Of a stretch of 64,000 nucleotides of DNA, positions 5,447 to 62,069 are shown one piece after another. Numbering within the stretch: the stretch's first letter is position 1; the number at the start of each line of letters is the position of its first letter. The notes under the pieces are model-generated. The model saw nothing but the letters and a program-made list of their open reading frames with translations, did no database searches and was not told the DNA's origin. Source of the stretch: an uncultured delta proteobacterium (GTDB lineage Bacteria; Myxococcota; Myxococcia; Myxococcales; Myxococcaceae). The DNA is taken from positions 1 through 64,000 of the forward strand of contig CAVZMH010000015.1 of assembly GCA_963776345.1 (NCBI GenBank), written 5' to 3'. The position numbers and the translations under genes were made by a program.

Positions 5447-5460
5447 TCTGGTCGTTCTCT

Positions 5461-6117
<657 letters not shown>

Positions 6118-6193
6118 CGTCGCTCGTCCTCGCCTCGCTTCGACGGGGCGTCATGACTCCACCGCCGTCGATCCAGGCCGTTGATTCATCACG

Positions 6194-6529: not shown

Positions 6530-6548
6530 GTTCTCTCGGCGCTCCCGC

Positions 6549-6917: not shown

Positions 6918-6931
6918 GGTCGGTCAGCTCC

Positions 6932-7252: not shown

Positions 7253-7266
7253 GTTCGTTCCTCGCC

Positions 7267-7476: not shown

Positions 7477-7489
7477 TGTCGTGTTCCTC

Positions 7490-7909
7490 TTACAGCGACA
7501 GATCCGCCCGGTGGACGATGCGGGTGAGCACCGGGAGCTTGGCCTGGGCCAGCTTCAGCGCCTCGTGGGCCAGCTGCTCTTCCATCCCGCCCATCTCGTA
7601 GAGGATGCGGCCGGGCTTCACCACCGCGACGTAGTACTCCACGCCGCCCTTGCCGGTGCCCATGCGGGTCTCGGCCGGCTTCTTGGTGATCGGCTTGTCC
7701 GGGAAGATTCGGATCCAGATCTTCCCGCCCCGCTTCACGTGGCGGGTCATGGCGATACGGGCCGCCTCGATCTGCCGGGAGGTGATCCACCCGGGCTGGG
7801 TGGTCATCAGGCCGAACTCGCCGTAGGTGAGGTTCGAGCCCCGGTATGCCTTCCCCGGCATCCGGCCCTTCTGCATCTTGCGATATTTGGTGCGCGCAGG
7901 CTGAAGCAT
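7490..7909 (-). CDS. rplP: 50S ribosomal protein L16
   Basis: [37 protein letters not shown]. Confidence 0.99.
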
Positions 7910-7918
7910 GGTCGTTCT

Positions 7919-8584
<666 letters not shown>

Positions 8585-8595
8585 GGTGCGCTCTC

Positions 8596-8955
8596 CTAAC
8601 TCTTCCGCGAACGGACCGGCGTGTCGGCGAGCACCACGTGCACGTGGCTGCTCTTCTTGTGGATGGGAGTGGCCCGGCCCATCGCCCGCGGCATGAACCG
8701 CTTCAGCGTGGGGCCCTGGTCCACCGAGATGGTCTTCACGTACAGCGCGTCCACGTCCACCTGGCCCTTGGAGAGGTCCGTGGCGTTGGCCACCGCGCTC
8801 TGGATCAGCTTGGCCACCGGCTTGGCCGCGGCCCGCTTGGTGAACCGGAGGATGTTGAGGGCCGCGCCCACGGGCTTGCCGCGGACCAGGTCCACCACCA
8901 CCGCGATCTTGCGGGGCGACATCCGGAAGTTCATGAGGTGCGCAGTCGATTCCAT
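8596..8955 (-). CDS. rplV: 50S ribosomal protein L22
   Basis: [24 protein letters not shown]; start ATG 8955. Confidence 0.97.
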
Positions 8956-8966
8956 TGGCTGCTCTC

Positions 8967-9257
8967 TCACTTGCCCGGGGGCGGCTTGGCGACCTTCTTC
9001 TCCGCCGAGTGGCCGGTGAAGGATCGGGTGGGGGAGAACTCGCCGAGCTTGTGACCCACCATGTTCTCGGTCACGAACACCGGGATGAACTTCCGCCCGT
9101 TGTGCACCGCGAAGGTGTGCCCCACGAACTCGGGAAGGATCGTGGACCGGCGGGACCAGGTCTTGAGGACCTTCTTCTGGTTGCCCTTGATCAGGTCCTC
9201 GACCTTCTTGAGCAGATGGGCGTCGACGAACGGGCCCTTCTTGATGGAACGTGCCAC
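8967..9257 (-). CDS. rpsS: 30S ribosomal protein S19
   Basis: [23 protein letters not shown]. Confidence 0.99.
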
Positions 9258-9272
9258 TTTGGTCGCCCTCTC

Positions 9273-10118
9273 CTACTGGCTCCGGACGCCGGACCGGCGC
9301 CCGCTGACGATGAACTTGTCGGTCCGCTTGTTCTTGCGGGTGCTGAGACCCTTGGTCTTCTGACCCCAGGGGCTCACGGGGTGCGGGTTACCCTGGCCGG
9401 ACTTGCCCTCGCCACCGCCGTGCGGGTGGTCGACCGGGTTCATGGCCAGACCGCGGACGGTGGGCCGGATGCCCAGCCAGCGGCTCTTGCCCGCCTTGCC
9501 GATCCGGATGATGTCGTGGTCGGCGTTGCCGATCTGGCCGATGGTGGCCCGGCACTCCAGGAGGACCTTCCGGACCACGCCCGAGGGCAGACGGATCTGG
9601 GCGTAGCTGCCCTCCTTCGCCATCAGCTGCCCGGAGGAGCCGGCCGAGCGGATCATCTGCGCCCCGCGGCCCGGCTTCAGCTCCACGTTGTGGATGGTGG
9701 TCCCCACCGGGATGTTCCCCAGCGGCAGGGCGTTCCCGGGCCGGATGTCCGCCTGGTCGCCGGCGAACAGGGTGTCGCCCACGGTGAGGCCCAGCGGGGC
9801 GAGGATGTAGCGCTTCTCGCCGTCGGCGTAGTGGAGGAGGGCGATGTTGGCCGAGCGGTTCGGGTCGTACTCCACGCTCGCCACCTTGGCCGGGACGCCG
9901 TCCTTGTCGCGCCGCTTGAAGTCGATGACCCGGTAGCGGCGCTTGTGGCCGCCGCCCTGGTGACGCCGGGTGATGTGGCCGTGGACGTTGCGCCCGCCCG
10001 AGCGCTTCATCGCCTCGGTGAGCGACTTCTCCGGCCGGTCGCGGGTGACGTCCGCGAAGTCCGAGACCGTCGTCAGGCGACGGGCAGCCGAGGTCGGCTT
10101 GAACTTCTTGATGCCCAT
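9273..10118 (-). CDS. rplB: 50S ribosomal protein L2
   Basis: [26 protein letters not shown]. Confidence 0.99.
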
Positions 10119-10119
10119 G

Positions 10120-10413
10120 TCAGACCACGCCTCCCTCGAACAGGTCGATCTTGTCGCCTACCTTCAGGGTGACGATCGCCTTCTTGTAGTTGGGGCGCTT
10201 GCCGGTGCTCCGCCCCACCCGCTTCACCTTGCCGCGGACGATGGTGGTGCGGACCGCCTCGACGTGGACGCTGAACAGCGACTCCACCGCCCGGGCCACG
10301 TCGTGCTTGGTGGCCTCCCGGTCGACCAGGAAGCTGTAGTGCCGGAACTTCTCCCGGGCGCGATCCAGCTTCTCGGTGATCAGCGGGCCCTTGATGACGT
10401 CTGTGGGGATCAT
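10120..10413 (-). CDS. rplW: 50S ribosomal protein L23
   Basis: [14 protein letters not shown]. Confidence 0.97.
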
Positions 10414-10419
10414 GGTCGG

Positions 10420-11046
10420 CTACGCCTCCAGCGCCTGATTGATGGCCTGGGCCGCGGCGGAGGACAGGACCACCGCCTTGTGCTTGAGGAGCGACTCGAG
10501 GTTCAGCCCCTCGGGGGGGAGCACGTCGAAGTCGACCAGGTTCCGCACCGTCCGGTGGAGCAGCGTGTTCTTCCGCTCGTCCACCACCAGGGCGTCCTTC
10601 AGCTTCAGCCGCCGGGTGAGGAGCTCCAGGGTCGCCTTGGTCTTGGGCGACTCGAGGTCGAAGGTGTCGACGATGAGGAGGGCCTTCTCCCGGGCGCGGA
10701 GCGACAGCGCGGCGCAGAGCGCGCCCCGGCGGACCTTCCTCGGCGGCCGGTAGGTGTAGTCCCGGGCCTTGGGGGCCATGGCCTTCCCGCCGCCGACCCA
10801 CTGGCTGGCGCGGATGGAGCCCTGGCGGGCGCGGCCGGTGCCCTTCTGCTTGTAGGGCTTCTTGCCGCCGCCCGAGACCAGCGAGGTGTTCTTCACCCCC
10901 ACGGTGCCGCGGCGGCGGTTGATCGCCTGGAACTTGGCGACCTCGTAGAAGAGGTTGGGGTTGGGCTCGGCGCCGAACACCTCGTCCGAGAGCTCGATCT
11001 CCCGGACCTTCTTCCTATCCAGATCGACGACGTCGAACTTGGCCAT
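10420..11046 (-). CDS. rplD: 50S ribosomal protein L4
   Basis: [23 protein letters not shown]. Confidence 0.98.
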
Positions 11047-11049
11047 GGC

Positions 11050-11358
11050 TTAGCTCTTGATCTCGACGTCGACGCCGGCCGACAGGTCGAGCTTCATGAG
11101 GGCGTCCAGCGTCTGCTGGGTGGGCTCGAGGATGTCGAGGAGCCGCTTGTGGGTGCGGATCTCGAACTGCTCCCGGCTCTTCTTGTCCACGTGCGGGCTG
11201 CGGAGCACCGTGAACTTGTTGATCCGAGTCGGAAGGGGGATCGGACCGGCCACCCGGGCGCCAGTGCGCCGGGCGGTCTCGACGATCTCTCCTGCGGACT
11301 GATCCAGGAGCTTCGAGTCGTACGCCTTGAGCCGGATGCGAATCTTTTGAGTCGCCAT
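11050..11358 (-). CDS. rpsJ: 30S ribosomal protein S10
   Basis: [30 protein letters not shown]. Confidence 0.99.
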
Positions 11359-21704: not shown

Positions 21705-23795
21705 TCAGTGTCCGCGGATGCGCGCCACGATCTCGTCCGCGACCGGCTTCGGCACCGCGGCGTAGTGGCTGAACTGCATGGTGTACGTCGCCCGGCCCTG
21801 CGTCCGCGAGCGCAGGTCGGTGGCGTAGCCGAACATCGTCGCCAGCGGCACCTGCCCCTGGATGTGCTGGGCCCCGCCCTTCGGCTCCATGCCCACGACC
21901 TTCCCCCGCCGGGCGTTCAGGTCGCCGATCACGTCGCCCATGAAGTCCTCGGGCGTCACCACCTCGATGGACATGATGGGCTCGAGCAGCACCGGCCCCG
22001 CCCGCGGGCCTCCCTCGCGCACCGCCATCGACCCGGCGATGCGGAAGGACACCTCGTTCGAGTCGACGTCGTGGAAGCTCCCGTCGATGGCCTCGACGTG
22101 CACGTCCACCATGGGGTAGCCGGCGAGCGGACCGTTGCTCATCGACTCCTGGGCGCCCTGGAACGCCGCCTCCACGAACTCCTTCGGCACCTTCCCGCCC
22201 ACGATGGAGTTCTTGCTGGTGAACCCCTTCCCCGACTCGTTCGGCGAGAGGCGGAACACGATGTCCCCGTACTGCCCGCGGCCGCCGGACTGGCGCACGT
22301 ACTGCCCGCGCGCCTCCACCGTCTGGGTGATGGTCTCCCGGTACGCCACCTGAGGCTTGCCGACGTTCGCCTCGACCTTGAACTCGCGCAGGAGCCGGTC
22401 GACGATGATCTCCAGATGCAGCTCGCCCATCCCGGCGATCAGCGTCTGGCCGCTCTCGGGATCGGTCCGAACCCGGAAGGACGGGTCCTCCACCGCCAGC
22501 TTCTGGAGCGACGTCCCGAGCTTGTCCTGGTCGGCCTTGGTCTTGGGCTCGATGGCGATGTCGATCACCGGCTCGGGGAACTCCATCCGCTCGAGCACGA
22601 TGGGGTGCCCCTCGTCGCAGAGCGTGTCGCCGGTGACGGTGAGCTTCAGCCCCACCGCCGCGGCGATGTCCCCGGCCAGCACCTCGTCGATCTCGTCCCG
22701 CTTGTCGGCCCGCATCTGGACCAGCCGCCCGATGCGCTCGCGCTTTCTCTTGGCCGGGTTCCACGCGGCCATGCCGGTCGCCAGCCGCCCCGAGTAGACC
22801 CGGATGAAGGTCAGCGTCCCCACGAAGGGATCGCTCATGATCTTGAACGCCAGCGCGCTGAACGGCGCGGTGTCGTTCGTCTCGCGGGTGGTGTCGTTCC
22901 CCTTGGGGTCCTTGCCATGCACCGGCGGGATGTCCAGCGGCGAGGGCAGCAGGTCCACCACCGCGTCCAGGAGCGGCTGCACGCCCTTGTGCTTGAACGC
23001 CGAGCCGCAGAGCACCGGGAACAGCGTCCGGGCGATGCACCCCTTCCGGAGCGCCGCCAGGAGCTCGGCCTCGGACGGCTCCTTCCCGTCCAGGTACAGC
23101 GCCATCACCCGGTCGTCCTGGTCGGCGCAGGCCTCGATCAGGTGCGCGCGTGCGGTCCTCGCCGCCTCGAGCAGCGAGGCCGGGATGTCCACCACCTCGA
23201 ACCGGCTCCCCAGCTCCGACTCGTCGAAGCTGATGCCCTTCATCCGAACCAGGTCGATCACCCCCTGGTGCTGATCCTCGACCCCCCAGGGGATCTGCAC
23301 CGGGACCGCGTGGGCCCCGAGCTTCTCCCGGATGCTCCGGACCGACATCTCGAAGTCGGCCCCCAGCCGGTCCATCTTGTTGATGAAGCAGATCCGGGGG
23401 ACGCCGTACCGGTCGGCCTGCCGCCACACCGTCTCGCTCTGGGGCTCCACGCCGTTGGCCGCGTCGAACACCGCGATGGCGCCATCGAGCACCCGCAGCG
23501 ACCGCTCCACCTCGATGGTGAAGTCCACGTGCCCCGGGGTGTCGATGATGTTGATGCGGTAGCGCTGGTCCCGCCGGTTCCAGAAGGCGGTGATCGCCGC
23601 CGAGGTGATGGTGATGCCGCGCTCGCGCTCCTGCACCATCCAGTCGGTGGTGGTGTTGGCGTCGTCGACGTCGCCCATCTTGTGGATGGTGCCGGTGTAG
23701 AAGAGGATCCGCTCGGTGGTGGTCGTCTTCCCGGCATCGATGTGCGCCATGATGCCGATGTTGCGGTAGCGCTCGAGCGGGAAGTCGCGGGCCAT
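21705..23795 (-). CDS. fusA: Elongation factor G
   Basis: [43 protein letters not shown]; follows rpsG. Confidence 0.97.
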
Positions 23796-23863
23796 GATCG
23801 ATCTCTACAAATGACAACGGCCGGGAGGCCCGGCCGTGGGAACTTCGAGGATTCGGCCCCCGC

Positions 23864-24334
23864 TTACCAGCGGTAGTGGGCGAAGGCCTTGTTGGCCTCG
23901 GCCATCTTGTGCGTGTCCTCGCGCTTCTTCACCGCGTTGCCACGGTTGTTGGCCGCGTCCATGATCTCGCCGGCCAGCTTCTCCTCCATCGTCTTCTCGC
24001 CGCGCGCCTTGGCGAAGATGATGAGCCAGCGCATGCCCAGCGCCACGCGGCGGTCCTGCCGGACCTCGACCGGGACCTGGTAGGTCGCGCCGCCCACGCG
24101 GCGGCTCTTGACCTCCAGCACGGGCTTCACGTTGTCCAGCGCCTTCTTGAAGGTGCGGAGCGGCTCCTCCTTCGCCCGCTCCTCGATGAGGGCGAAGGCG
24201 CCGTAGCAGACCCGCTCGGCGATGGACTTCTTGCCCTTCCGCATCAGGTCGTTGACGAACTTGGTGACCAGCCGGTCCTGGAACTTCGGGTCGGGGAGGA
24301 TCTTCCGCTTGGCGACGACGCGACGACGAGGCAT
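23864..24334 (-). CDS. rpsG: 30S ribosomal protein S7
   Basis: [30 protein letters not shown]. Confidence 0.99.
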
Positions 24335-24349
24335 CTGCTTTGGCTTCCT

Positions 24350-24722
24350 TTAGCTCGGGCGCTTCGCGCCGTACTTGCTGCGACTCTGCTTCCGGCCCTG
24401 CACGCCGACCGAGTCCAGGGTGCCGCGGATGATGTGGTAGCGGACGCCGGGGAGGTCCTTCACCCGGCCCCCGCGGATCATCACCACCGAGTGCTCCTGG
24501 AGGTTGTGACCCACGCCGGGGATGTAGGACGTCACCTCGATGCCGTTGGTCAGCCGGACGCGGGCCACCTTCCGCAGCGCCGAGTTCGGCTTCTTCGGGA
24601 GTGGTGGTGTAGACGCGGGTGCACACCCCACGCTTCTGGGGAGACTCCTTGAGCGCCGGGCTCTTCCCCTTCACCACGAGCTTCTCGCGCCCCTTGCGCA
24701 CCAGCTGACTGATGGTCGGCAT
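24350..24722 (-). CDS. rpsL: 30S ribosomal protein S12 (one extra base at ~24598, probable sequence error)
   Basis: MPTISQLVR...[10 protein letters not shown] in one frame and [15 protein letters not shown]...[12 protein letters not shown] in the next; span 373 bp = 3n+1. Confidence 0.97.
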
Positions 24723-32011: not shown

Positions 32012-34558
32012 ATGGCCACCGCGCTGGTGAAGGTCGACGACAGCGAGGCCGCGCTCCGGCACGAGTTCGGCCCCACCGGCCGCGCGCTGGGGCGCCGGTA
32101 CTGTCCGTACGTCCGGGTGACGCCAGCGGCGGAGGCCGAGCTGCGGCGGATCAGCGCCGAGGGCTTCGTGGTGCACGTGCAGCGGACCGCGGCCTGGGTG
32201 AGCTTTCTCTACCTCGCCTGGCTCCTGGTCAGCCGCGCCCTCCCGCCGATCCGCGCCGTGGTGAACATGCGGCGGTGGTTCGGCCGGCCCTGGCGCCGGG
32301 TGGCGCAGCGCGGACCGCTCGACGTCCGCTTCACCTTCGCCCGGAGGCAGGGCGGCTCGGCGCTGGTCTTCCTCCAGCAGACGGCGATCGGGCGGGCCGG
32401 CGGCCGGAGCGGCCGGGAGGACCCCTTCCCCGCCCTGGTGGCGATGGCCCGGAAGAGCGACCGGCCGGTGTTCCTCGTCCCCGAGCTGGTGGTCTGGGAG
32501 AAGTGGAGCGTCCGGATCAAGCCCGCCTGGGCGGACTACGTCTTCGGGACGCCCGAGGCGCCGGGCTTCCTCCACTCGGTGCTGGCCTTCCTCCGGAACC
32601 ACAAGCGGGCGCAGTTCCGGGTGGGCGAGCCCATCGACCTCCGGGCCTTCGCCGCGCAGAACCCGGAAGAATCGGACGTGGTGGTCGCCCGGAAGGTCCG
32701 CGCCGTGCTCCACGTGCATCTCGCCCGCGAGACCCGTGCCGTCTTCGGGCCGCCGTACAAGCCGCCCGAGCGGGTCATCGAGGAGACGCTGCGTGACCGC
32801 ACGCTGCGCCAGACCATCGAGCAGACCGCCACCCGCAGCGGGAAGGACCCGGCGGCGCTGGAGCGCGAGGCCCGGCGGAACCTCAATGCCATCGCCGCAC
32901 GGCTGCACCCCACGGTGCTCGCGGTCGTCGCGCCGCTGATGGGCTGGGTGTTCGACCGGATCTACGACGGCATCAACGTGGACGAGGCCGGGCTGGAGCG
33001 CGCGCTCCGGGCCGGACTCAACGGCGCGCCGATCGTGCTCTGCCCGAGCCACAAGAGCCACGTGGACTACCTGGTCATGTCCTGGGTGCTGTGGAAGCGT
33101 GGCTACCAGGTGCCGGTGGTGGCCGCCGGGGCGAACCTCTCCTTCTTCCCGCTGGGGCCGGTGCTCCGGCGCGTCGGGGCGTTCTTCCTCCGCCGCAGCT
33201 TCGGCACCGACCGGCTCTACACCGCGACCTTCAAGGCCTACGTCAAGAAGCTGGTGCGCGACGGCGTGCACCAGGAGTTCTTCCCCGAGGGCGGCCGCTC
33301 CCGGACCGGCAAGCTCCTCCCCGCCAAGCTGGGGCTGCTCGGCTGGGAGGTGGACGCGGTCCTGGAGGGGGCCCGGAACGACCTCGCCTTCATCCCGGTG
33401 GCCATCGATTACGAGAAGATCGTCGAGGGCAGCAGCTACAGCAGGGAGCTGGTCGGCGGGGAGAAGAAGCCCGAGGACGTGGGCGCGCTCATCCGGGCGC
33501 CACAGGTGCTGCTCCGTCGCTACGGCACCATTCACCTGCGCTTCGACGAGCCGGTGCTCCTCCGCGACTTCATGCGGGGCCGCGGCCTGGAGGACCCGGG
33601 CAGCATCGGCGAGGAGGAGAGGCGCGGCCTGGTCCGGGCGCTGGGGCACCGCATCATGTGGGGCATCGCCCGCGTGTCCACGGTGACGCCGCACGCGCTG
33701 GTGAGCAGCGCCCTCCTCGCGCACCCCGGCCGGGGGCTGCCAGCCTCCGCGCTCGGCGCGCGGGTGGACGCGCTCCGGGGGATGTGCCTCGAGGAGGGCT
33801 CGGCGCTGTCCACCGGCCTCGCCGGAGCCCCGAGCGACCCGACCGTGGCGGGCCCGGTGCGCACCGCGGTGCTCGGCTTCGTCGAGGACAAGCTGGTCCG
33901 CACCGAGCAGGCCAAGGGCGAGACGGTCTACCTGCCGGTGGACGAGCGGCGGGTCCAGCTCGCCTACTACAAGAACACCATCCTGAACCTGATCGCCCCG
34001 CGCGCGCTGGTGGCCTGCGCCGTGCTCCGGGGCGTGCTCGACGGCACCGAGGAGTCGGTCCGGACCAAGGCCCTCTTCCTCTCCCGGCTGTTCAAGCTGG
34101 AGTTCATCTACCGGGTGGGCGCGCCCTTCGAGATCATCTTCGCCGAGACGGTGGACAAGCTGGTGGCGGCCGGGCTCCTGGTGCGGCGCGACGGGTCGCT
34201 CCTCCCCCCCGATGCGCAGGCCCGCGGCGTGCTCGAGTTCCTGGCCGACATGATCCGCGACTACCTGCAGTCGTACCTGCTCGCCGCGCTGACGCTGGAC
34301 GACCTCGCCACGGGCCCCATGGACCGGAAGGCGTTCCTCCGGGCCGCGCTGGAGACCGGGCGGATGGAATTCCTCTCCGGGCGCCTCGACGCCGCCGAGG
34401 CCATCAGCCGGACCACGCTGGAGAACGCGCTGGCCTGGCTCCTCGAGCAGGAGATGGTGGCCGAGCGGGACCGAAAGCTGGTCCTCGGCCCCACCGCGGA
34501 GCGGCCCGAGCCGCGCGAGGCGTTCCGCGACGAGCTGCGCGCCTACCTCGACCGGTAG
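32012..34558 (+). CDS. plsB: Glycerol-3-phosphate acyltransferase, PlsB-like
   Basis: HKSHVD (HxxxxD), GAFFLRRSF, FFPEGGRSRTGKL. Confidence 0.85.
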   Translation: MATALVKVDDSEAALRHEFGPTGRALGRRYCPYVRVTPAAEAELRRISAEGFVVHVQRTAAWVSFLYLAWLLVSRALPPIRAVVNMRRWFGRPWRRVAQRGPLDVRFTFARRQGGSALVFLQQTAIGRAGGRSGREDPFPALVAMARKSDRPVFLVPELVVWEKWSVRIKPAWADYVFGTPEAPGFLHSVLAFLRNHKRAQFRVGEPIDLRAFAAQNPEESDVVVARKVRAVLHVHLARETRAVFGPPYKPPERVIEETLRDRTLRQTIEQTATRSGKDPAALEREARRNLNAIAARLHPTVLAVVAPLMGWVFDRIYDGINVDEAGLERALRAGLNGAPIVLCPSHKSHVDYLVMSWVLWKRGYQVPVVAAGANLSFFPLGPVLRRVGAFFLRRSFGTDRLYTATFKAYVKKLVRDGVHQEFFPEGGRSRTGKLLPAKLGLLGWEVDAVLEGARNDLAFIPVAIDYEKIVEGSSYSRELVGGEKKPEDVGALIRAPQVLLRRYGTIHLRFDEPVLLRDFMRGRGLEDPGSIGEEERRGLVRALGHRIMWGIARVSTVTPHALVSSALLAHPGRGLPASALGARVDALRGMCLEEGSALSTGLAGAPSDPTVAGPVRTAVLGFVEDKLVRTEQAKGETVYLPVDERRVQLAYYKNTILNLIAPRALVACAVLRGVLDGTEESVRTKALFLSRLFKLEFIYRVGAPFEIIFAETVDKLVAAGLLVRRDGSLLPPDAQARGVLEFLADMIRDYLQSYLLAALTLDDLATGPMDRKAFLRAALETGRMEFLSGRLDAAEAISRTTLENALAWLLEQEMVAERDRKLVLGPTAERPEPREAFRDELRAYLDR

Positions 34559-35038
34559 TCAGCGCGGCGCAATCAGCGCGTCGAGCTTCCGGGCCAGCGT
34601 CGCGTTGGAGACCAGGCCCTCGTACCGCCCCACCATCGTCCCGTCGGCCGAGACCAGGAAGGTGGCGGGCACCGTCTCCAGGCCCAGGGGCGCGAGCATC
34701 TCGCTCTCCGCCGCGGCGACGGGCATCGTGCGGAGGCCCATCTTCTCGGCCGCGACCCGAATCCGGGTGCGGTCGGGGGCGATGGAGACGGCGATGAACC
34801 CCACCCGGCCCTCGTACTGCTTCGCCAGCTTCTCCAGCTCGGGCAACTCCCGAGCACAGACGCCTCAGCCGGGCATCCAGAGGTTCACCAGCCACGGCCG
34901 GCCGCGCATCGTCTTCGGGGTGACGCTCGCGCCGTCGAGACCGCGCGCGCTGAAGGAGTCGGGCAGCGGCCGCGGGGTGTAGGAGGGCTGGCAGGCGGCG
35001 CCGAGCACGAGCAGGAGGAGAACGGGCAGACTGCGCAT
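34559..35038 (-). CDS. TlpA/ResA-like thiol-disulfide oxidoreductase lipoprotein, predicted selenoprotein (UxxC)
   Basis: Manual translation: MRSLPVLLLLVLGAAC...PWLVNLWMPG-TGA-GVCARELPELEKL...VPATFLV...; TGA is codon 58 (34865-34867) and the frame is otherwise open for 159 aa. Confidence 0.85.
34837..34855 (-). promoter_or_regulatory. Bacterial SECIS element
   Basis: GCTCGGG-AGTTG-CCCGAGC perfect 7-bp stem; the loop starts 16 nt after UGA with G at loop position 2. Confidence 0.78.
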
Positions 35039-35102
35039 GCCTGGTCCTCGACGCTTTCACAGCCCTCACGGGGCTGGCAAGGTGCTCCGGCCGTCACCCA
35101 TC

Positions 35103-36248
35103 GTGCTCGAGCCCACCCTTCCCCCGTCCGACGCACCCGAACCTCCGGTACCCGCCGAGCGGCTGGGATGGCTCGCGCTGGTCGGCGCGCTGGCGCTCTT
35201 CTACCTGGTCGGCGTGCCGCTGCAGATGGTGAGCGCCGGCGCGGGCATCTGGTTCGCCGAGGTGTTCCTCTTCCTCGGCTCCGGCTGGGCGCTGACCCGC
35301 TGGAGCGGCCGGGCACCGGCGCCGTACCTCGGGCTTCGATGGCCCGGGATCCGGCCTCTCCTGTTCGCGCTCGGCGTGGCCGTGGCCAACTACTTCGCGC
35401 TGGTCATCCCGCTGCAGTTCCTGGTCCAGCTGGCCGCCCCACAGTCGTGGGTGGAGATGTTCGACCAGACCCAGGTGTTCGAGCGGAGGAGCGGCCTCGA
35501 GCTGTTCCTGGCCATGACCGGCGCGGTGGCCGCCGCGCCGATCGGCGAGGAGGTCGTCTTCCGGGGCCTCTTGCTCCAGGGCCTTCTCCGCCGGGGCGTG
35601 GCCGTCATCCCGGCGGTGATCGCCTCGGCGGCCATCTTCAGCCTCTGCCACGTCAACCTCATCGGGCTTCCCGCGCTCTTCGAGCTGGGGGTGGTCTTCG
35701 GGCTCCTCTACGTCCGGACCCGGACCGTGCTTCCGGGGATGGTGGCCCACCTGGGGAGCAACCTGACGGCCACCCTGCTCTACGTCGCCGGGAAGGGACA
35801 GGAGCCGGGGCCGGTCGAGCTGTCCGCGCTTCCCGCCATCCTCGGCGCGAGCGCTGCCGGATGGGTGGTGCTGGGCCTCGTCCTGTCCGCCGCCCGCCGG
35901 GTGCCCGGGGCCTGGGGTCAGCGCCGGGAGGAGGACGTGGCCCGACCCCGGATCCCGCTCTCGCGGGCGCTCGCGCCCTGGGCCGTGGCGGCCGCGGCCT
36001 CGCTCGTCGTCTGGGGCCTCGCGGACCGCCGCGGCCTCGAGCTCGACCTCGCGGACGTCCAGGCCCGGCTGCCGCCGCCCCGCTCCAGCGAGCCGGGATG
36101 GGCGCGCGAGCGCCGGGATGAGGTCGAGACGCTCCGGGAGGACGTGCGCCAGGGAAAGGCGAGCCTCGAGACCTACCGCCAGGCGCGCCGCGTGCTCGCC
36201 GGAGCGCTGGCAGCCGACGCCGGGACCCCGGACGGGGGAGCGCCCTGA
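35103..36248 (+). CDS. CPBP (CAAX/Abi) intramembrane metalloprotease
   Basis: EEVVFRG, FSLCH, AHLGSN motifs; multiple TM segments; start uncertain. Confidence 0.88.
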   Translation: MLEPTLPPSDAPEPPVPAERLGWLALVGALALFYLVGVPLQMVSAGAGIWFAEVFLFLGSGWALTRWSGRAPAPYLGLRWPGIRPLLFALGVAVANYFALVIPLQFLVQLAAPQSWVEMFDQTQVFERRSGLELFLAMTGAVAAAPIGEEVVFRGLLLQGLLRRGVAVIPAVIASAAIFSLCHVNLIGLPALFELGVVFGLLYVRTRTVLPGMVAHLGSNLTATLLYVAGKGQEPGPVELSALPAILGASAAGWVVLGLVLSAARRVPGAWGQRREEDVARPRIPLSRALAPWAVAAAASLVVWGLADRRGLELDLADVQARLPPPRSSEPGWARERRDEVETLREDVRQGKASLETYRQARRVLAGALAADAGTPDGGAP

Positions 36249-46966: not shown

Positions 46967-47611
46967 GTGGAACACGCCCCTGCTCTGCAGCTGCACGAGG
47001 TCAGCAAGCGCTACGGAGCGCGGTGGGCGCTCGTCCGGCTCTCGCTGACCGTGAAGCGCGGCGCGGCGCTGCTCCTCACCGGTCACAACGGGTCGGGGAA
47101 GACGACGCTGCTCCGCGTGCTGGCCACCGCGGTCCGCCCCTCGGCGGGACGGGTGGAGGTGCTGGGGCTCGACACCGCGCTCGAGCCGGAGAAGGTCCGG
47201 GCGCAGGTGGGCCTCCTGAGCCACGCCCACTTCGTCTACGAGGACCTCTCCGGGCTGGAAAATCTCGTGGTCCTCGCGCGGCTGCTCGGCGAGCCCGAGT
47301 CCGCCGCCACCGGCGCGCTGGAGCGCGTGAGCCTCTCACCCAAGGACGACCGGCCAGTCCGGACGTACTCGGCCGGGATGCGCCGGCGGCTGGCCCTGGC
47401 GCGGCTCTTCCTCAAGCAGCCCGCCGTGGCCCTCCTCGACGAGCCCTTCGTCGAGCTGGACCCGACCGGCATCTCCGAGCTCGAGGCGCGCATCCGCGAG
47501 CTGCGCGCCGCCGGCACCACGCTGGTCCTCGCCACCCACCACATCGAACAGGGGCTTCAGCTCTGCACGGACCGATTGCATCTGGAACAGGGACGATCGA
47601 TCGCCGCATGA
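46967..47611 (+). CDS. ccmA: Heme exporter ATP-binding protein CcmA
   Basis: GHNGSGKTT, YSAGMRRRLALARL, LLDEP. Confidence 0.92.
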   Translation: MEHAPALQLHEVSKRYGARWALVRLSLTVKRGAALLLTGHNGSGKTTLLRVLATAVRPSAGRVEVLGLDTALEPEKVRAQVGLLSHAHFVYEDLSGLENLVVLARLLGEPESAATGALERVSLSPKDDRPVRTYSAGMRRRLALARLFLKQPAVALLDEPFVELDPTGISELEARIRELRAAGTTLVLATHHIEQGLQLCTDRLHLEQGRSIAA

Positions 47612-48294
47612 GGCTCCCTGGCCTCCTGGCCTCGACGTGGGTCCTCTTGAAAAAGGACCTGCTCCTCGAGTGGCGCTCGCTCGCGCGCGTCAACGCGCTG
47701 CTCTTCTTCTCGCTCGCCACCTTGCTCCTCTTCTCCTTCGCGCTCGGGCCGGACACCGCGCTGCTCCGGCGGAACGCCGGCGGCTACCTGTGGCTCGCGC
47801 TCCTGCTCGCCAGCGTCCTTGCCCTGGGCGAGTCGTTCCGGGTGGAGCGCGAGAACGCCACGCTGGAGGGGCTGCGGCTGGTGCCGGTGAACGCCCGGTC
47901 CATCTTCCTGGCCAAGGCCATCGCCAACGCGGTGCTGCTCGCCGCGCTCGGCGTGCTCCTGGTCCCGGTGCTGGTGGCGCTGCTCGACGTGCGGATCGTG
48001 CTCTCCTGGGGGCAGCTCCTCACCCTCATCGCGCTCGGCTGCCTGGCCATCGCCGCGCCGGGCACGCTCTACGGCGCCATCGCCAGCCACGCCCGGGCCC
48101 GGGACGTGCTCCTTCCGCTCCTCCTCTTCCCCATCCTCATCCCCGCCCTGGTGGCGGCGGCCAAGGGCACGGCGCTGGTGTTCGAGGGGGACCCGATGGG
48201 TCAGTTCCCCTCATGGCTCGCCCTCCTGACCAGCTTCGATCTGATCTACTGGGGGCTGGGGGTCCTGTTGTTCCCCCGGGTTGTCGAGGAGTAA
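47608..48294 (+). CDS. ccmB: Heme exporter permease CcmB
   Basis: KDLLLEWR, FRVERENATLEGL, LLPLLLFPILIP. Confidence 0.93.
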   Translation: MRLPGLLASTWVLLKKDLLLEWRSLARVNALLFFSLATLLLFSFALGPDTALLRRNAGGYLWLALLLASVLALGESFRVERENATLEGLRLVPVNARSIFLAKAIANAVLLAALGVLLVPVLVALLDVRIVLSWGQLLTLIALGCLAIAAPGTLYGAIASHARARDVLLPLLLFPILIPALVAAAKGTALVFEGDPMGQFPSWLALLTSFDLIYWGLGVLLFPRVVEE

Positions 48295-48313
48295 GCACCA
48301 TGGGTTCCTTCCT

Positions 48314-49003
48314 ATGAGCAAGCCACTCCGAATCGGGTTCGTGCTCCTCACGCTCGCCCTCCTCGTCTCCGGGGCGTGGATCGGCCTGGCCTGGGCGCCT
48401 CCCGACCGCGAGATGGGTCACGTGCAGCGCATCATGTACATGCACGTGCCCGCGGCCTGGATGGCGCTCCTCGCGGCGACGATGAACTTCGGCACCTGCG
48501 TCTCGTACCTCTGGAAAGCCTCGTGGAAGAAGGACGCCTTCGCCGAGGCCACCGCGGAGGTGGGGCTGCTGTTCGGGACCATCGCCATCCTCCTCGGCTC
48601 CATCTGGGGGCGGCCGACCTGGGGCGTGTACTGGGCGTGGGATCCCCGTCTGACCACCATGGCGATCCTCCTGGTGGCCTACGCCGGGTACCTCGCGCTG
48701 CGGCGCTTCGTGGACGACCCCGACCGGCGCGCGGTCTGGTCCGCGGTGGTGGGCATCATCATCGCGGTCGACGTCCCGGTCGTGTACTTCAGCGTGAAGT
48801 GGTGGAAGAGCCTCCACCAGGTGCAGTCCACGCCCAAGACGGTGGACCCGCAGATGGTGCTCGCGCTCCGCTGGAACGCCGTCGCCTTCCTCGCCGTCCT
48901 GATCATCTTCCTCGTCGCCCGCTACCGCATCGCGCTCGCCTCGCGGATGCGGGAGACGACCGTGCCGGATGCGCCGACCGGCGCCCGGGAGGCAGTCGTC
49001 TGA
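48314..49003 (+). CDS. ccmC: Heme exporter CcmC
   Basis: YMHVPAAW, WGRPTWGVYWAWDPRLT, WWKSLHQ. Confidence 0.96.
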   Translation: MSKPLRIGFVLLTLALLVSGAWIGLAWAPPDREMGHVQRIMYMHVPAAWMALLAATMNFGTCVSYLWKASWKKDAFAEATAEVGLLFGTIAILLGSIWGRPTWGVYWAWDPRLTTMAILLVAYAGYLALRRFVDDPDRRAVWSAVVGIIIAVDVPVVYFSVKWWKSLHQVQSTPKTVDPQMVLALRWNAVAFLAVLIIFLVARYRIALASRMRETTVPDAPTGAREAVV

Positions 49004-49158
49004 TGAACACCCTGAACCTGGTTCTCGCCGCCGTCGGCGAGGGACGCATCCGCGGCGGCTGGGAGTACGTGTGGACGGCGTACGGCATCGCCTGGACCGG
49101 CCTGTCGCTCTACGCCCTGTCCTTGTGGGCCCGCTGGCCGCGGGAGGAGCGGAAGTGA
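49003..49158 (+). CDS. ccmD: CcmD-like small membrane protein
   Basis: 51 aa, YVWTAYG then TM helix and basic tail; overlaps ccmC and ccmE. Confidence 0.75.
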   Translation: MNTLNLVLAAVGEGRIRGGWEYVWTAYGIAWTGLSLYALSLWARWPREERK

Positions 49159-49624
49159 ACCCCACCACCCGCAATCGCCTGGTCGCCCTCGGCGCGCTGC
49201 TGGTCGCCGGCGCCGGCCTGTCCTTCGTCGCCTTCGGCAACATCGGGCAGAACCTGGTCTTCTACTGGACCCCGGGAGAGATGCTCGCCCAGGGCAGCAA
49301 GGCGTACGGGCCCACCATCCGCCTCGGGGGCGTGGTCCAGCCGGGCAGCCTGCAATGGGACGCCGCGCACACCCACCTCACCTTCCGGGTGGCGGACAGC
49401 GCCCAGCCGGGCGCGCCCTCGGTGGTGGTGCAGTCGCGCGAGACCCCGCCGCAGATGTTCCGCGAGCGGATCGGCGTGGTGGTGGAGGGAACGTTCGACA
49501 AGTCCCAGACGTTCACTTCGTCCAGGCTCATGGTGAACCACTCCAACGAGTACCGGCCGCCGAAGCCGGGTGACGGTCCCGACAAGTGGAAGACCACCGT
49601 CTCCGCTCCCACCGCGGAGGCCCG

Positions 49625-49628
<4 letters not shown>
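49155..49628 (+). CDS. ccmE: Heme chaperone CcmE
   Basis: NLVFYWTP, IRLGGVV, PQMFRE, HxxxY motif HSNEY. Confidence 0.93.
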
Positions 49629-51633
<2,005 letters not shown>

Positions 51634-51637
<4 letters not shown>

Positions 51638-52191
51638 GGAGGCGCGGGCTGTGGATCGGCCTGTCGCTGGCCGCGGTGACCGCGGTGCTGCTCTTCGTCC
51701 TGGCCAAGGGCTTCGGGCGCGATCCGCACGCGGTCCCCTTCCAGCTCCGGGGCAAGCCCGCCCCCGACTTCACCCTGAAGCGGCTGGACAACGGCGCGCC
51801 GGTGAAGCTCTCGGACCTCAAGGGCAAGCCCCTGGTCCTGAACTTCTGGGCCAGCTGGTGCGGGCCCTGCAAGATGGAGCATCCGGTCATCGCCTGGGGC
51901 GCCAAGCGGTTCGCACAGGAGGTGCAGTTCTACGGGGTGGTGTTCGAGGACACCGAGGAGAACGCCCGGGCGTTCGCCGGGAACCCGGACCCGAGCTTCC
52001 CCCAGCTCATCGACGAGCGCTCGCGGATGGCGGTGGACTACGGTGTGACCGGTGTGCCCGAGACGTACTTCATCGACGCCCAGGGCATCCTCCGCGACAA
52101 GGTGGCGGCCCCCGTGGACCCGACGACGCTGATGGAGAAGCTCGCCGCCCTCAAGCAGCCGCCCGGGCCGGTCTCGGAGGTCGTCCGATGA
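51634..52191 (+). CDS. ccmG: Thiol:disulfide oxidoreductase CcmG/DsbE
   Basis: LNFWASWCGPC, GVPETYFID. Confidence 0.92.
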
Positions 52192-52655
52192 CCGCGCTGG
52201 TCCTGGGCCTGGTGCTGTCCGCCTACGCCCCGCAGCAGGCCGGGAGCGCGCTGCTCGATCCGCCGCGCGAGGCGCGGGTGCAGGCCCTGGGCAAGCAGCT
52301 CCGCTGCCCGATGTGCCAGGGCCTCTCCATCGCCGACTCGAACTCGTCCGCGGCCCGCGCCCAGATGGACAAGGTGCGGGAGCTGGTGGCGGCCGGGAAG
52401 ACCGACCGGGAGATCCGCGACTACTTCACCGCCCGCTACGGCGAGTGGGCGCTGCTCGACCCGCCGGCGAGCGGGATGAACGTCCTGGTCTGGCTGCTCC
52501 CCCTGGCGCTGCTCCTGGGCGGCGGCCTGGCCATCGCCCGGACCATGCGGCGGCCCGTCCCCGCCCCCGCGCCGGACGCGCCGGGAGCGGCCAAGGGGCA
52601 ACCACCGTCCGATGACCCGTACCTCGAGGCGGTGCGGGCGGAGATGCGCCGGTGA
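52188..52655 (+). CDS. ccmH: Cytochrome c biogenesis protein CcmH
   Basis: LRCPMCQGLSIADS, RYGEW. Confidence 0.93.
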   Translation: MTALVLGLVLSAYAPQQAGSALLDPPREARVQALGKQLRCPMCQGLSIADSNSSAARAQMDKVRELVAAGKTDREIRDYFTARYGEWALLDPPASGMNVLVWLLPLALLLGGGLAIARTMRRPVPAPAPDAPGAAKGQPPSDDPYLEAVRAEMRR

Positions 52656-53593
52656 CCGAGACCCACTGGATCCCGGGCATCGTCGTTCTCTCCCTCGGGC
52701 TCATCGGCGGGGCGCTCTACCTCCTGTTCTGGCGCAAGCCTTCCGCGGCCGGCCCGGCCGACCGCGTGAGCGACACCCAGAACCGGGTGGATTCGCTGCT
52801 GGCCCAGCTCCGCGAGCACCAGGGCGAGCGGCACCAGATGGACGCAGCCGCCTGGGAGGCCGAGCGCGACCGGCTGGAGCGGGCGGCGGCGGACGCGATG
52901 CGCACCCGGGACGAGGCGGCCGGGACGCCGGAGAAGTCGGCATCCGGGAAGAAGAAGGAGGCGCCGGCCCCTGCGTCCGCGACGCCCAGCGGCTTCTTCG
53001 GCCGGCACCCACATCTGGTAGGCGCCGCCTGGGGCGCGGGCGTGGTCGTCTTCTTCGGCGCGCTCGGGCTCTGGCTGTCGCAGGACCAGAAGCCGCGGGA
53101 AGCCGGCGACACCGCCACCGGGACCGTGGGCCGGGGCGGCACCGCAGCGGCGGGCCCCGAGGGCGAGGACCGGGACTTCCAGGCCGCGCTGGCCCGGGTG
53201 AAGGACAACCCGGGCTCGGACCTGCCGCTCACCTCCGAGGTGGTGCGCGAGCTCATCAGCCGGAGCGACTTCCAGCAGGCGCTCGAGCTCAACGAGCGGG
53301 CGCTCGCCGCGGATCCGTTCCGGACCGACCTGCGCATCCACCGCGCCTTCCTCAAGGTGGTCCAGGGCGAGAAGGAGGCCGGGATGGCGGAGCTGGGAAA
53401 GATCGCCGACCTCTACCCGGACGGCACCTCCGCGCTCATCTTCCGCGGGATGATCCACATGCAGGCCCGTGAGACCCGCGAGGCGCTGGCCGACTTCGAG
53501 GGCTACCTGGCGGTCACTCCTCCGCAGAACGTCCCGCCACAGATGCGGGCCGGCGTGGCCCAGCTCCGACGCGAGGTCACCGGAGCACCCTGA
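52652..53593 (+). CDS. CcmI/CycH-like TPR protein
   Basis: Two TM segments flanking a helical loop, then TPR-like helices; last overlapping gene of the ccm operon. Confidence 0.72.
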   Translation: MTETHWIPGIVVLSLGLIGGALYLLFWRKPSAAGPADRVSDTQNRVDSLLAQLREHQGERHQMDAAAWEAERDRLERAAADAMRTRDEAAGTPEKSASGKKKEAPAPASATPSGFFGRHPHLVGAAWGAGVVVFFGALGLWLSQDQKPREAGDTATGTVGRGGTAAAGPEGEDRDFQAALARVKDNPGSDLPLTSEVVRELISRSDFQQALELNERALAADPFRTDLRIHRAFLKVVQGEKEAGMAELGKIADLYPDGTSALIFRGMIHMQARETREALADFEGYLAVTPPQNVPPQMRAGVAQLRREVTGAP

Positions 53594-60707: not shown

Positions 60708-62069
60708 ATGAAAGTCAGCGCGATTCTCACCCTCTTCGCGGGGCTCATCCTGGGCTTCTTCATCGGCCAGGCCACCCGCAGCTCCGTCCCGTCCAGTGTG
60801 ACCCAGCGCCCGGGGACGACGCCCACCCGCCCCCGGCCGACGCCGGATGCAGCCGCGTACCGGCTCCCGCTGGAGGACTCGCCGGTGCGCGGCCCCGCCG
60901 ACGCGCTGGTGACGCTGATGGAGTTCAGCGACTACCAGTGCCCCTACTGCCGGCAGGCGCACGCCACCGTCACCCAGGTGGAGAAGAAATACGCGGGCAA
61001 GATACGGCTGGTGATGAAGCAGTACCCCCTCCCCTTCCACCCGCAGGCCCGGCCGGCGGCGCTGGCCGCCATCGCCGCGGGGATGCAGGGCCGGTACTGG
61101 GAGATGCACGACCGGCTCTTCGCCTCGCCCCAGCTCGACCCCGAGACCCTCGAGCGGTACGCGAAGGAGATCGGCCTCGACGTCGAGCGCTGGAAGCACG
61201 ACCAGAACGACCCGAAGGTCGCCGCCATCATCCAGCGGGACATGGACCTCGCCACCAACGTGAACGTCAGCGGCACCCCCGCCTTCTTCGTGAACGGCCG
61301 GCGGCTCCCGGGCGGCGCGGCCCCGCTGGATGCCTTCAGCGCCCTCGTCGACGAGGAGCTGGCCAAGGCCGAGGCGATGGTGCGCCAGGGCGTCCCGGCG
61401 AGCCAGGTGTACGCCCGGCTTCAGGAGAAGTCGCTGGCCTCGGCCATCCCGCCGCCGGTCATCAAGAAGGTGGACGTCCCGGCCGACGCCGCGACGTTCG
61501 GCCCGGCGGTGGCCAAGGTCACCATCGTGGAGTGGAGCGACTTCCAGTGCCCGTTCTGCGCCCGGGCGGCGCCGCTGGTGGAGCAGATCCGCCAGGCGTA
61601 CCCGAAGGACGTGCGCTTCGTGTTCCTGCACTACCCGCTGCCGATGCACCCGGACGCGCCGACAGCGGCGAGGGCCGGCGTCGCCGCGCAGGCGCAGGGC
61701 AAGTTCTGGCCGATGCACGACTGGATGTACGCCCACCAGCGGGAGCTGGACTCGGCGTCGCTGGAGAAGGCGGCCGGCTCGCTGGGGCTCGACGTGGCGA
61801 AGTTCAAGGCCGCGATGGGTAGCCCCGCCACCGAGGCGCGGGTGAAGGCGGACATGCAGGCCGCGCAGGCGATCGGCGTCTCGGCCACCCCCACCTTCTT
61901 CGTGAACGGCCGGGAGCACGTGGGCGGCATGCCCTTCGAGCAGCTGAAGACGGAGATCGACCGGGAGATCGCCCGGGCGGACAAGCTCCTGTCCTCGGGC
62001 GTGAAGCCGGCCGACCTCTACGGGCGGCTGGTGGCGGACGCGGCCGGGCCCTCCGGCGCGCGGAACTGA
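60708..62069 (+). CDS. Tandem two-domain DsbA/Com1-like oxidoreductase
   Basis: EFSDYQCPYC and EWSDFQCPFC, each with a TP.FFVNG cis-Pro loop; N-terminal anchor. Confidence 0.92.
   Translation: MKVSAILTLFAGLILGFFIGQATRSSVPSSVTQRPGTTPTRPRPTPDAAAYRLPLEDSPVRGPADALVTLMEFSDYQCPYCRQAHATVTQVEKKYAGKIRLVMKQYPLPFHPQARPAALAAIAAGMQGRYWEMHDRLFASPQLDPETLERYAKEIGLDVERWKHDQNDPKVAAIIQRDMDLATNVNVSGTPAFFVNGRRLPGGAAPLDAFSALVDEELAKAEAMVRQGVPASQVYARLQEKSLASAIPPPVIKKVDVPADAATFGPAVAKVTIVEWSDFQCPFCARAAPLVEQIRQAYPKDVRFVFLHYPLPMHPDAPTAARAGVAAQAQGKFWPMHDWMYAHQRELDSASLEKAAGSLGLDVAKFKAAMGSPATEARVKADMQAAQAIGVSATPTFFVNGREHVGGMPFEQLKTEIDREIARADKLLSSGVKPADLYGRLVADAAGPSGARN

What the first reader, a model, noticed from the sequence alone, without database searches (positions are those of the whole stretch)
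34559..35038. Hidden selenoprotein: lipoprotein TlpA/ResA thioredoxin with UxxC and a SECIS hairpin
Seen: the ORF track reports only the last 95 aa, but the minus frame is open from ATG 35038 except for one TGA (34865-34867). That TGA sits exactly at the attacking-Cys position of the thioredoxin motif (VNLWMPG-U-GVC). Directly downstream is a perfect 7-bp stem GCTCGGG/CCCGAGC with loop AGTTG, the loop starting 16 nt after the UGA with G second. Known: this fits the bacterial SECIS model, and Sec typically replaces the first Cys of CxxC. Inference: an exported, lipid-anchored (LGAAC) Sec oxidoreductase that standard annotation would call a pseudogene. It may serve periplasmic thiol reduction alongside the Cys-only CcmG and DsbA encoded in this window.
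Basis: partly seen in the sequence, partly recalled or inferred. Interest (0 to 1): 0.85.

Follow-up and report, generated by a model that had tools for sequence, protein, structure and literature searches.

The report
Myxobacterial selenocysteine thioredoxin-like lipoprotein gene
The apparent stop codon in the middle of this small gene of a soil myxobacterium is almost certainly read as selenocysteine, giving a likely membrane-anchored redox enzyme that gene callers cut in two; it is real and widespread in this group but belongs to an already known kind of selenoprotein.

Summary
Confirmed. Window 34559-35038 (-) is a 159-codon TlpA/ResA-like gene whose only internal stop, TGA at codon 58, falls on the attacking cysteine (UGVC). 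The genome (Myxococcaceae-like) has selA, selB, selD and tRNA-Sec. Contigs of two other runs also read TGA. Of 56 genomes with an orthologue examined, 50 keep TGA, all with the same short hairpin (6-7 of 7 pairs). Six have Cys and a degraded hairpin, and all four Cys genomes without detectable selA are among them. The hairpin shows compensatory changes (17 cells; 0 of 500 shuffles) and keeps a rare TTG/TTT codon. Alone it is weak evidence: 14% of true TGA stops here have one. A lipobox Cys is conserved and the predicted fold is ResA-like. Most likely it is an exported thiol-disulfide reductase fed by DsbD/CcdA; its substrate is unknown. UxxC TlpA/Redoxin selenoproteins are already catalogued, and this scan reported the same kind earlier on other DNA. 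New here: an order-wide myxobacterial family with a W-x-P-x-U motif, recorded only as 95-aa fragments, that sometimes sits in a sulfur-handling gene cluster.

The parts
34559..35038 (-). Full gene, 159 aa with Sec58: TlpA/ResA-like thioredoxin-fold lipoprotein
   Evidence: Pfam Redoxin 1.6e-11 and AhpC-TSA 2.2e-9, both over cut-off; GC3 0.95 before and 0.96 after the TGA; AlphaFold model mean pLDDT 91.3
35046..35049 (-). Possible ribosome-binding site GAGG, 7 nt before the ATG
   Evidence: Sequence; function inferred
34991..35038 (-). Predicted lipoprotein signal peptide, residues 1-16, ending LGAA-C16
   Evidence: C16 nearly invariant in alignment A1; [AGS]-C found by script in 39 of 45 orthologues; no signal-peptide predictor was available
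34865..34867 (-). In-frame TGA, predicted selenocysteine, attacking position of UxxC
   Evidence: Aligns with the first Cys of ResA CxxC; TGA in 50 of 56 genomes, TGC/TGT in 6; same letters in contigs of runs X1 and X8
34856..34858 (-). Resolving Cys61
   Evidence: Invariant in A1
34837..34855 (-). Bacterial SECIS-like hairpin: 7-bp stem, loop AGUUG, overlapping codons A62-R-E-L-P-E-L68
   Evidence: 97.3% of cells paired, 4 of 7 pairs with two-sided changes, 0/500 shuffles for covariation score; degraded in the 6 Cys forms
34847..34849 (-). Glu64, aligned with ResA Glu80 (CxxC+3)
   Evidence: Invariant in A1; alignment to ResA. One later orthologue (G162) has Lys here
34667..34669 (-). Pro124, position of the thioredoxin-fold cis-proline
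   Evidence: Invariant in A1, aligned to the ResA P-T-T loop; cis geometry not tested
32012..34558 (+). Neighbour: PlsB-like glycerol-3-phosphate acyltransferase, abutting tail to tail; no functional link shown
   Evidence: Pfam GPAT_C and Acyltransferase
35103..36248 (+). Neighbour: CPBP (Rce1-like) intramembrane protease, divergent; no functional link shown
   Evidence: Pfam PF02517; start chosen by codon score

Best explanation
This gene has an in-frame UGA at the first cysteine position of a thioredoxin CxxC motif, followed by a conserved covarying hairpin, and very likely encodes a selenocysteine-containing TlpA/ResA-type lipoprotein that is predicted to be anchored outside the cytoplasm and would act there as a thiol-disulfide reductase. 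Shown: the TGA, the hairpin and its covariation, the Sec machinery in the genome, the conserved N-terminal Cys, and the conserved C61, E64 and P124. Inferred steps: (1) SelB with Sec-tRNA binds the A-GUU-(G/U) loop and inserts Sec58 (about 0.96); (2) the protein is exported, lipidated at Cys16 and faces the periplasm (about 0.85); (3) the Sec58 selenolate attacks a substrate disulfide or oxidised thiol, Cys61 resolves it, and a DsbD/CcdA membrane protein re-reduces the Se-S bond (about 0.6). The substrate is not identified. A general accessory role in envelope thiol repair is favoured because the ccm operon has its own CcmG and the gene is patchily distributed.
For: Machinery: selA 509 bits, selB over cut-off, selD with its own TGA, tRNA-Sec with TCA anticodon; FdhA and a SelW-type gene also carry in-frame TGA, and the FdhA hairpin has the same A-GUU-U top. 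TGA in 13 of 13 genus genomes. Across 56 genomes: TGA with selA 49; TGA without selA found 1 (G016, 89% complete, has selB and tRNA-Sec); Cys without selA found 4; Cys with selA 2. Among 52 Sec loci the stem keeps 7 of 7 pairs in 45 and 6 of 7 in 7; the six Cys loci keep 2-6. Codon +7 is TTG in 43, TTT in 8, TTA in 1 of 52, against G000 usage of 2.0% (TTG of Leu) and 2.8% (TTT of Phe); no Cys form uses them. Synonymous recoding gives such a hairpin in 195 of 20000 trials. Covariation. The loop fits the published N1-G-[G/U]-N-N2 pattern and 16-37 nt spacing. Best sequence matches in the PDB are ResA (1.2e-22); Foldseek gives ResA, DsbF and TlpA. G000 has two DsbD_TM genes; a DsbD_TM-thioredoxin gene lies within the fetched stretch in 5 of 34 loci, directly adjacent in G218 and G224.
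Against: No protein or RNA evidence: the one RNA run covers only 34976-35199, not the TGA, and all runs were contigs, not raw reads. The hairpin is unremarkable energetically and 14% of true TGA stops have one. Kin share the hairpin by descent, so the shuffle control overstates. No NCBIfam model passes its cut-off. The top Foldseek hit is mycobacterial DsbF, which I recall as oxidising. In the window's own locus, and in 29 of 34 loci, no DsbD_TM gene is nearby (stretches were 3-20 kb). The single MsrA of G000 shows no evident signal peptide, so an Etrx-type exported Msr substrate is not supported. The lipobox has Gly at -3 where the recalled consensus has Leu; two orthologues (G035, second G060 copy) lack the Cys.
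Confidence: 0.7

Rival explanations
1. A selenoprotein, but an oxidase or isomerase like mycobacterial DsbF/DsbE rather than a reductase.
For: DsbF (3IOS) is the top Foldseek hit and MPT53 (1LU4) ranks 16th. The usual W before the first Cys is replaced (W-x-P-G-U), and the xx dipeptide varies freely (GV, ST, HA, SD, WV), so the potential cannot be read from the motif.
Against: Sequence profile ranks ResA first; the ResA Glu80 position is kept; the window already encodes a DsbA-type protein; DsbD_TM neighbours occur in 5 loci; a more reactive selenolate fits a reducing role (established knowledge, recalled).
Confidence: 0.13
2. A selenoprotein specialised for periplasmic sulfur handling: it would reduce persulfides or polysulfides, or recycle a periplasmic rhodanese/SoxB-like module, with electrons from the CcdA-thioredoxin fusion.
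For: In 5 of 34 loci (G218, G162, G147, G310, G314) the gene lies with a SoxB-like hydrolase (TIGR04486 7e-79, below cut-off), YeiH-like transporter and DsrE-like protein, variously with YeeE/YedE, rhodanese, persulfide-dioxygenase-like MBL, ECF sigma/anti-sigma and CcdA-thioredoxin. G314 lies apart from the other four on the tree.
Against: The window's own locus and 8 other loci from five genera have the argS-plsB-CPBP-subtilase context; close relatives of G147 (G203, G264, G216, G241, G188, G202) show no such cluster in the stretch fetched. At most two or three independent associations.
Confidence: 0.08
3. A second CcmG: it reduces apocytochrome CxxCH motifs or Cu-binding thiols for respiratory-chain assembly.
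For: ResA, CcmG and TlpA are the closest solved relatives; one locus (G060) lies beside a DsbD_2 protein and a P-type ATPase.
Against: The ccm operon at 46967-53590 has its own CcmG; the family was found in only 35 of 114 family genomes sampled and missed in many selA-positive ones.
Confidence: 0.06
4. The TGA is a true stop (pseudogene or split gene), a sequencing error, or is read as Trp/Cys by a changed code.
For: Public protein sets hold only the 94-105 aa fragments for close relatives (108 of 113 hits); the hairpin alone is within chance.
Against: Same TGA in 50 genomes down to about 33% protein identity with the frame open on both sides; Cys replaces it where selA was not found; contigs of X1 and X8 agree; TGA ends 1635 long ORFs in this genome, so it is a normal stop here.
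Confidence: 0.03

Closest known systems
[quoted passage not shown]
   Same: Thioredoxin fold of the TlpA/Redoxin/AhpC-TSA type, single Sec at the first position of UxxC, SECIS right after the UGA.
   Different: W-x-P-x-U motif and myxobacterial range; lipoprotein signal (the review's main text has no occurrence of 'lipoprotein', 'periplasm', 'ResA' or 'Myxococc'). The representative sequences of those families could not be compared.
ResA (Bacillus), CcmG/DsbE, TlpA (PDB 1ST9, 4NMU, 1KNG, 1JFU)
   Same: Predicted fold (query TM-score about 0.75 to ResA), N-terminal anchor, CxxC, Glu at +3, conserved Pro loop.
   Different: Sec for the first Cys; 17-25% identity; far below the NCBIfam cut-offs (47.6 bits against 170 for ResA); not in the ccm/res operon.
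Pneumococcal Etrx1/Etrx2 thioredoxin lipoproteins (PMC3914529; abstract and headings seen)
   Same: Lipid-anchored extracytoplasmic thioredoxins in CcdA-fed electron pathways; structural matches.
   Different: Their partner is an exported MsrAB; the only MsrA found in G000 looks cytoplasmic.
NCBIfam NF041054 (ResA-like WAxxUGC), NF041383 (VPGUxxT), NF047660 (HUIPC) selenoprotein models
   Same: Thioredoxin-like selenoproteins named by their Sec motif; VPGU resembles the VPG-U seen in several orthologues.
   Different: Window protein hits none of them at E 0.001; three orthologues hit NF041054 at 21-27 bits against a cut-off of 300.
SaoX/SaoC/SaoB exported or lipoprotein selenoproteins (bioRxiv 10.1101/2022.07.06.499078; passages seen)
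   Same: Precedent for selenoproteins with (lipoprotein) signal peptides.
   Different: ABC substrate-binding and CC-COOH proteins of anaerobic Firmicutes, not thioredoxin-fold.

Membership tests
Bacterial selenoprotein (UGA-Sec) | In-frame UGA aligned with Cys in homologues | tested here: met
   50 TGA and 6 TGC/TGT among 56 genomes; alignment to ResA
Bacterial selenoprotein (UGA-Sec) | selA, selB, selC, selD in the genome | tested here: met
Bacterial selenoprotein (UGA-Sec) | bSECIS: 4-16 bp stem, 3-9 nt loop, G in first two loop positions, 16-37 nt spacing, MFE at or below -7.5 | tested here: met
   Model; 7 bp, 5 nt, G second, 16 nt, -13.7 kcal/mol; covariation. bSECISearch itself not available; no Rfam match
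Bacterial selenoprotein (UGA-Sec) | Selenium incorporated in the protein | not testable with these tools
   Needs 75Se labelling or MS
TlpA/ResA/Redoxin-type thioredoxin fold | Thioredoxin fold with N-terminal hairpin and insertion; Pfam Redoxin/AhpC-TSA over cut-off | tested here: met
TlpA/ResA/Redoxin-type thioredoxin fold | CxxC (here UxxC), Glu at +3, conserved Pro loop | tested here: met
ResA / CcmG / TlpA proper (equivalog or subfamily) | Score above curated cut-off | tested here: not met
   47.6/170 (ResA), 38.7/123 (DsbE), 36.9/230 (TlpA)
ResA / CcmG / TlpA proper (equivalog or subfamily) | Location in the cytochrome c maturation operon | tested here: not met
   The ccm operon 12 kb away has its own CcmG; no CcmF-type cluster among families shared by three or more of the loci
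Bacterial lipoprotein | Basic N-terminus, hydrophobic stretch, lipobox Cys | tested here: met
   MRSLPVLLLLVLGAAC; conserved Cys. Pattern recalled; Gly at -3 is non-canonical
Bacterial lipoprotein | Lipidation and membrane location | not testable with these tools
   Needs palmitate labelling, globomycin test, fractionation
Catalogued UxxC families cd02966 / PF08534 / PF00578 (PMC13188914 Table 1) | Domain and UxxC motif | tested here: met
   PF08534 and PF00578 over cut-off with UxxC; cd02966 not held
Catalogued UxxC families cd02966 / PF08534 / PF00578 (PMC13188914 Table 1) | Orthology to the listed representatives, or presence in BSepDB | not testable with these tools
NF041054 WAxxUGC / NF041383 VPGUxxT / NF047660 HUIPC | HMM score above cut-off and motif | tested here: not met

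The most novel reading that the evidence does not exclude
Aerobic soil myxobacteria carry an uncatalogued, order-wide family of exported selenocysteine thioredoxins that has switched between Sec and Cys several times, and in Myxococcus-type genomes it has joined a CcdA-fed periplasmic sulfur module (rhodanese, SoxB-like hydrolase, DsrE-like, YeeE/YedE, persulfide dioxygenase) as a selenium-dependent persulfide or polysulfide reductase.
Probability: 0.1. Interest if true: 0.6.

Novelty: new member of a known kind. Interest (0 to 1): 0.3.

Why it matters
It corrects the gene in dozens of myxobacterial genomes, where records hold only a 95-aa tail without signal peptide or active site. The catalogued UxxC TlpA/Redoxin selenoprotein families are listed as predictions, not as experimentally verified. 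A close fragment is named from Myxococcus stipitatus, so a culturable aerobe is available to test what Sec does in an exported thioredoxin. Natural Sec/Cys pairs and a 19-nt covarying SECIS give ready controls. It does not change the picture of how Sec is used.

Tried and rejected
Fold energy of the hairpin as evidence: z = -0.63, and 228 of 1635 true stops have one; rejected as stand-alone support. Rfam: no relevant match. Promoter and terminator scan of 34300-35400: none. RNA run X20 does not cover the TGA, and the X3 contig has only 21 letters on one side of it, so neither was counted. My first genome-wide readthrough scan was too strict and missed selD, FdhA and SelW; a motif-based scan found them. 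A candidate at G000:C22:391227 proved to be an ordinary stop before the next gene. Exported MsrA as substrate: not supported. Functional link to plsB or the CPBP protease: shared context in 9 of 34 loci only, divergent or convergent orientation, not pursued. The careful tree did not finish; the quick tree (13 of 67 branches strongly supported) cannot give the direction of Sec/Cys change. One protein (L117:3331-4680) was given on the wrong strand and its blank result was ignored. How NCBI and UniRef annotate the clusters of named species could not be looked up (one search did not complete). Search of earlier findings by sequence gave nothing. No complex prediction was run, because an enzyme-donor contact is transient and would pass or fail by likeness to solved pairs.

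Full report
Observation. The minus strand from ATG 35038 to 34559 reads as 159 codons with one internal TGA at codon 58 (34865-34867), in WLVNLWMPG-U-GVCARELPEL. Codon bias is coding-like on both sides (GC3 0.95 and 0.96). The ORF finder reports only the last 95 aa, starting at a TTG that sits in the hairpin loop. The hairpin GCTCGGG-AGTTG-CCCGAGC is at 34837-34855, with 16 nt between UGA and loop. By itself it is not unusual: z = -0.63, and 228 of 1635 TGA stops of long coding-like ORFs in this genome are followed by a 7-bp hairpin meeting similar rules.

Not an error. Logan contigs of runs X1 and X8 (two studies) span the codon. All 14 and all 5 of their differences are listed and none falls in it. 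These are contigs of near-identical strains, not raw reads. The RNA run does not reach the codon.

The organism can make selenoproteins. G000 (5.1 Mb, 98% complete; close loci are titled Myxococcaceae, Myxococcota or uncultured delta proteobacterium) has selA, selB and selD over their cut-offs and a tRNA-Sec with TCA anticodon. SelD, FdhA and a SelW-type gene carry in-frame TGAs. The FdhA hairpin has the same top, A-GUU-U.

Orthologues. All 13 genomes of the genus have the gene with TGA. A profile search of 301 genomes of the phylum matched 50 at E 1e-25 or better, 35 of 114 in the family and 0 of 40 in family f7 (only 12 candidates per genome were scored, and the tally includes unpublished G220). 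I examined the active-site codon in 56 genomes, drawn. Left out were G220, G189 and G224, the second copies in G277 and G060, and five weak hits near 1e-26. Result: TGA with selA 49, TGA with selA not found 1, Cys with selA not found 4, Cys with selA 2 (selA). The exception, G016, is 89% complete and has selB and tRNA-Sec. The four selA-less Cys genomes belong to four genera and are 92-99% complete. Many selA-positive genomes gave no match, so the gene is accessory. A quick tree needs 13 Sec/Cys changes, of which strongly supported branches force 3; direction is not shown.

The hairpin is under selection in the Sec forms only. Over 52 Sec loci the stem has 7 of 7 pairs in 45 and 6 of 7 in 7; the six Cys loci have 2, 3, 4, 5, 6 and 6. 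The loop is AGTTG (43), AGTTT (8) or AGTTA (1). This forces TTG, TTT or TTA at codon +7, although TTG is 2.0% of Leu and TTT 2.8% of Phe codons in G000; no Cys form has them. Synonymous recoding by genome usage gives such a hairpin in 195 of 20000 trials. On 26 distinct Sec sequences, 97.3% of cells pair, 4 of 7 pairs show two-sided changes (17 cells), and no shuffle of 500 reaches the covariation score; slid controls give 10-58% pairing. Several changes alter amino acids on both sides (ARELPEL, IRELPGI, LQEFPGL, VRELPEL with GTT/GAA). Relatedness inflates the shuffle test. The element meets the published bacterial SECIS model in stem, loop, G position, spacing and energy.

The protein. Pfam Redoxin and AhpC-TSA pass their cut-offs. 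No NCBIfam model does. The AlphaFold model (U as C; pLDDT 91.3) matches DsbF, ResA, Etrx and TlpA, and the profile ranks ResA first among solved sequences. C61, E64 (ResA Glu80 position) and P124 are invariant in the 15-row alignment. The family has W-x-P-x before the Sec instead of the usual W-A-x-W. A small residue plus Cys ends a hydrophobic N-terminus in 39 of 45 orthologues by script; four more show it in the printed sequences, and two (G035, second G060 copy) lack it. Lipidation is inferred from a recalled lipobox pattern.

Context. In the window the gene abuts a PlsB-like gene and diverges from a CPBP protease. I compared 36 fetched stretches of 3-20 kb, 34 distinct loci of 33 genomes. 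Nine loci, from five genera, share the argS, plsB, CPBP, subtilase context. Five have a DsbD_TM-thioredoxin gene nearby. Five lie in a cluster with SoxB-like, YeiH-like and DsrE-like genes, variously with YeeE/YedE, rhodanese, persulfide-dioxygenase-like and ECF sigma genes; three loci are in both of the last two groups. The rest vary. G000 has two DsbD_TM genes elsewhere. The window's ccm operon has its own Cys CcmG, and a Cys DsbA-type protein lies at 60708.

Mechanism. SelB likely recodes UGA58; the protein is likely lipid-anchored on the periplasmic side; the selenolate would attack oxidised thiols, Cys61 would resolve, and DsbD/CcdA would recharge it. The last step rests on family knowledge and the five DsbD-neighbour loci. 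Rivals are a DsbF-like oxidase, a sulfur-module reductase and a spare CcmG. No substrate is identified.

Databases. Of 113 hits to the profile, 108 are 94-105 aa fragments and 5 are full length; the three of these that I read have Cys. A search from a more distant orthologue gave nine fragments, one named 'hypothetical protein [Myxococcus stipitatus]', and one full-length Cys form. The 18 full-length representatives read show no U. How stored U would be displayed is not certain.

Literature. PMC13188914 (abstract, passages, section 5, section 7 parts 1-2 of 3) lists UxxC families for cd02966, PF08534 and PF00578 as predicted. PMC13326102, BSepDB (passages, parts 1-2 of 6, cut supplement showing only Table S1) screened Myxococcia genomes by iterative tblastn with known families, so these genes may already be in that database, which I could not open. 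The four supplements of PMC12013277 hold no 'Myxococc', 'TlpA', 'Corallococcus' or 'Anaeromyxobacter' (main text not read). bioRxiv 10.1101/2022.07.06.499078 (passages) gives precedent for lipoprotein selenoproteins. PMC3914529 (abstract and headings) gives the CcdA-Etrx model. Six searches (listings only unless named above) showed no paper on this myxobacterial family; the library lacks most subscription papers. Earlier notes of this scan report the same kind of gene in eight other genomes, one a marine Myxococcota with a W-U-G-A-C motif; they are unchecked and were read after my analysis.

Verdict. A real selenoprotein gene with high confidence, a new member of a known kind. Interest 0.3.

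Noticed in passing
G000:C2:47145 (+), locus L115:1119-1340: Second small hidden selenoprotein of this genome: SelT/SelW/SelH-type, CNV-U, 74 aa (TIGR02174 over cut-off); no hairpin passed my SECIS rule.
   Followed up: partly
G000:C2:70968 (-) and G000:C20:109766 (+): FdhA and SelD are selenoproteins here; the FdhA hairpin has the same A-GUU-U top as the TlpA family, SelD has loop GUC at 33 nt.
   Followed up: partly
L097 (G218), L079 (G162), L098 (G147), L103 (G314), L111 (G310): A patchy sulfur-handling cluster in large-genome myxobacteria: SoxB-like hydrolase, YeiH-like, DsrE-like, YeeE/YedE pair, rhodanese, persulfide-dioxygenase-like MBL, ECF sigma with zinc anti-sigma, CcdA-thioredoxin fusion.
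   Followed up: partly
L083 (G263) 449-3985: The Cys orthologue follows an ECF sigma/anti-sigma pair that diverges from an MNIO (MbnB/TglH/ChrH, PF05114) plus DUF2063 operon with a small secreted peptide.
   Followed up: no
L090 (G060) 3376-3990 (-) and L087 (G277): Second, more distant Sec copies (WYEY-U-PVC; WAPW-U-SAC) with the same CGGGAGTTGCCCG hairpin core.
   Followed up: partly
L079 (G162) 3640-3675: A G-to-A change breaks the top stem pair and turns the conserved Glu into Lys; possible decay of this copy.
   Followed up: no
window 46967-53590: Complete-looking ccm operon (CcmF, CcmG, CcmH confirmed by Pfam; ccmA, B, C, E by inspection of the translations).
   Followed up: partly
window 60708-62066: Tandem DsbA-type protein with two CxxC domains (CPYC, CPFC).
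   Followed up: no
window 345-11358 and 21708-24568: The ribosomal protein cluster appears split: rpsL-rpsG-fusA at 21.7-24.6 kb and rpsJ onward at 11.4 kb, with about 10 kb of unrelated genes between and no tuf gene called there (names by inspection).
   Followed up: no
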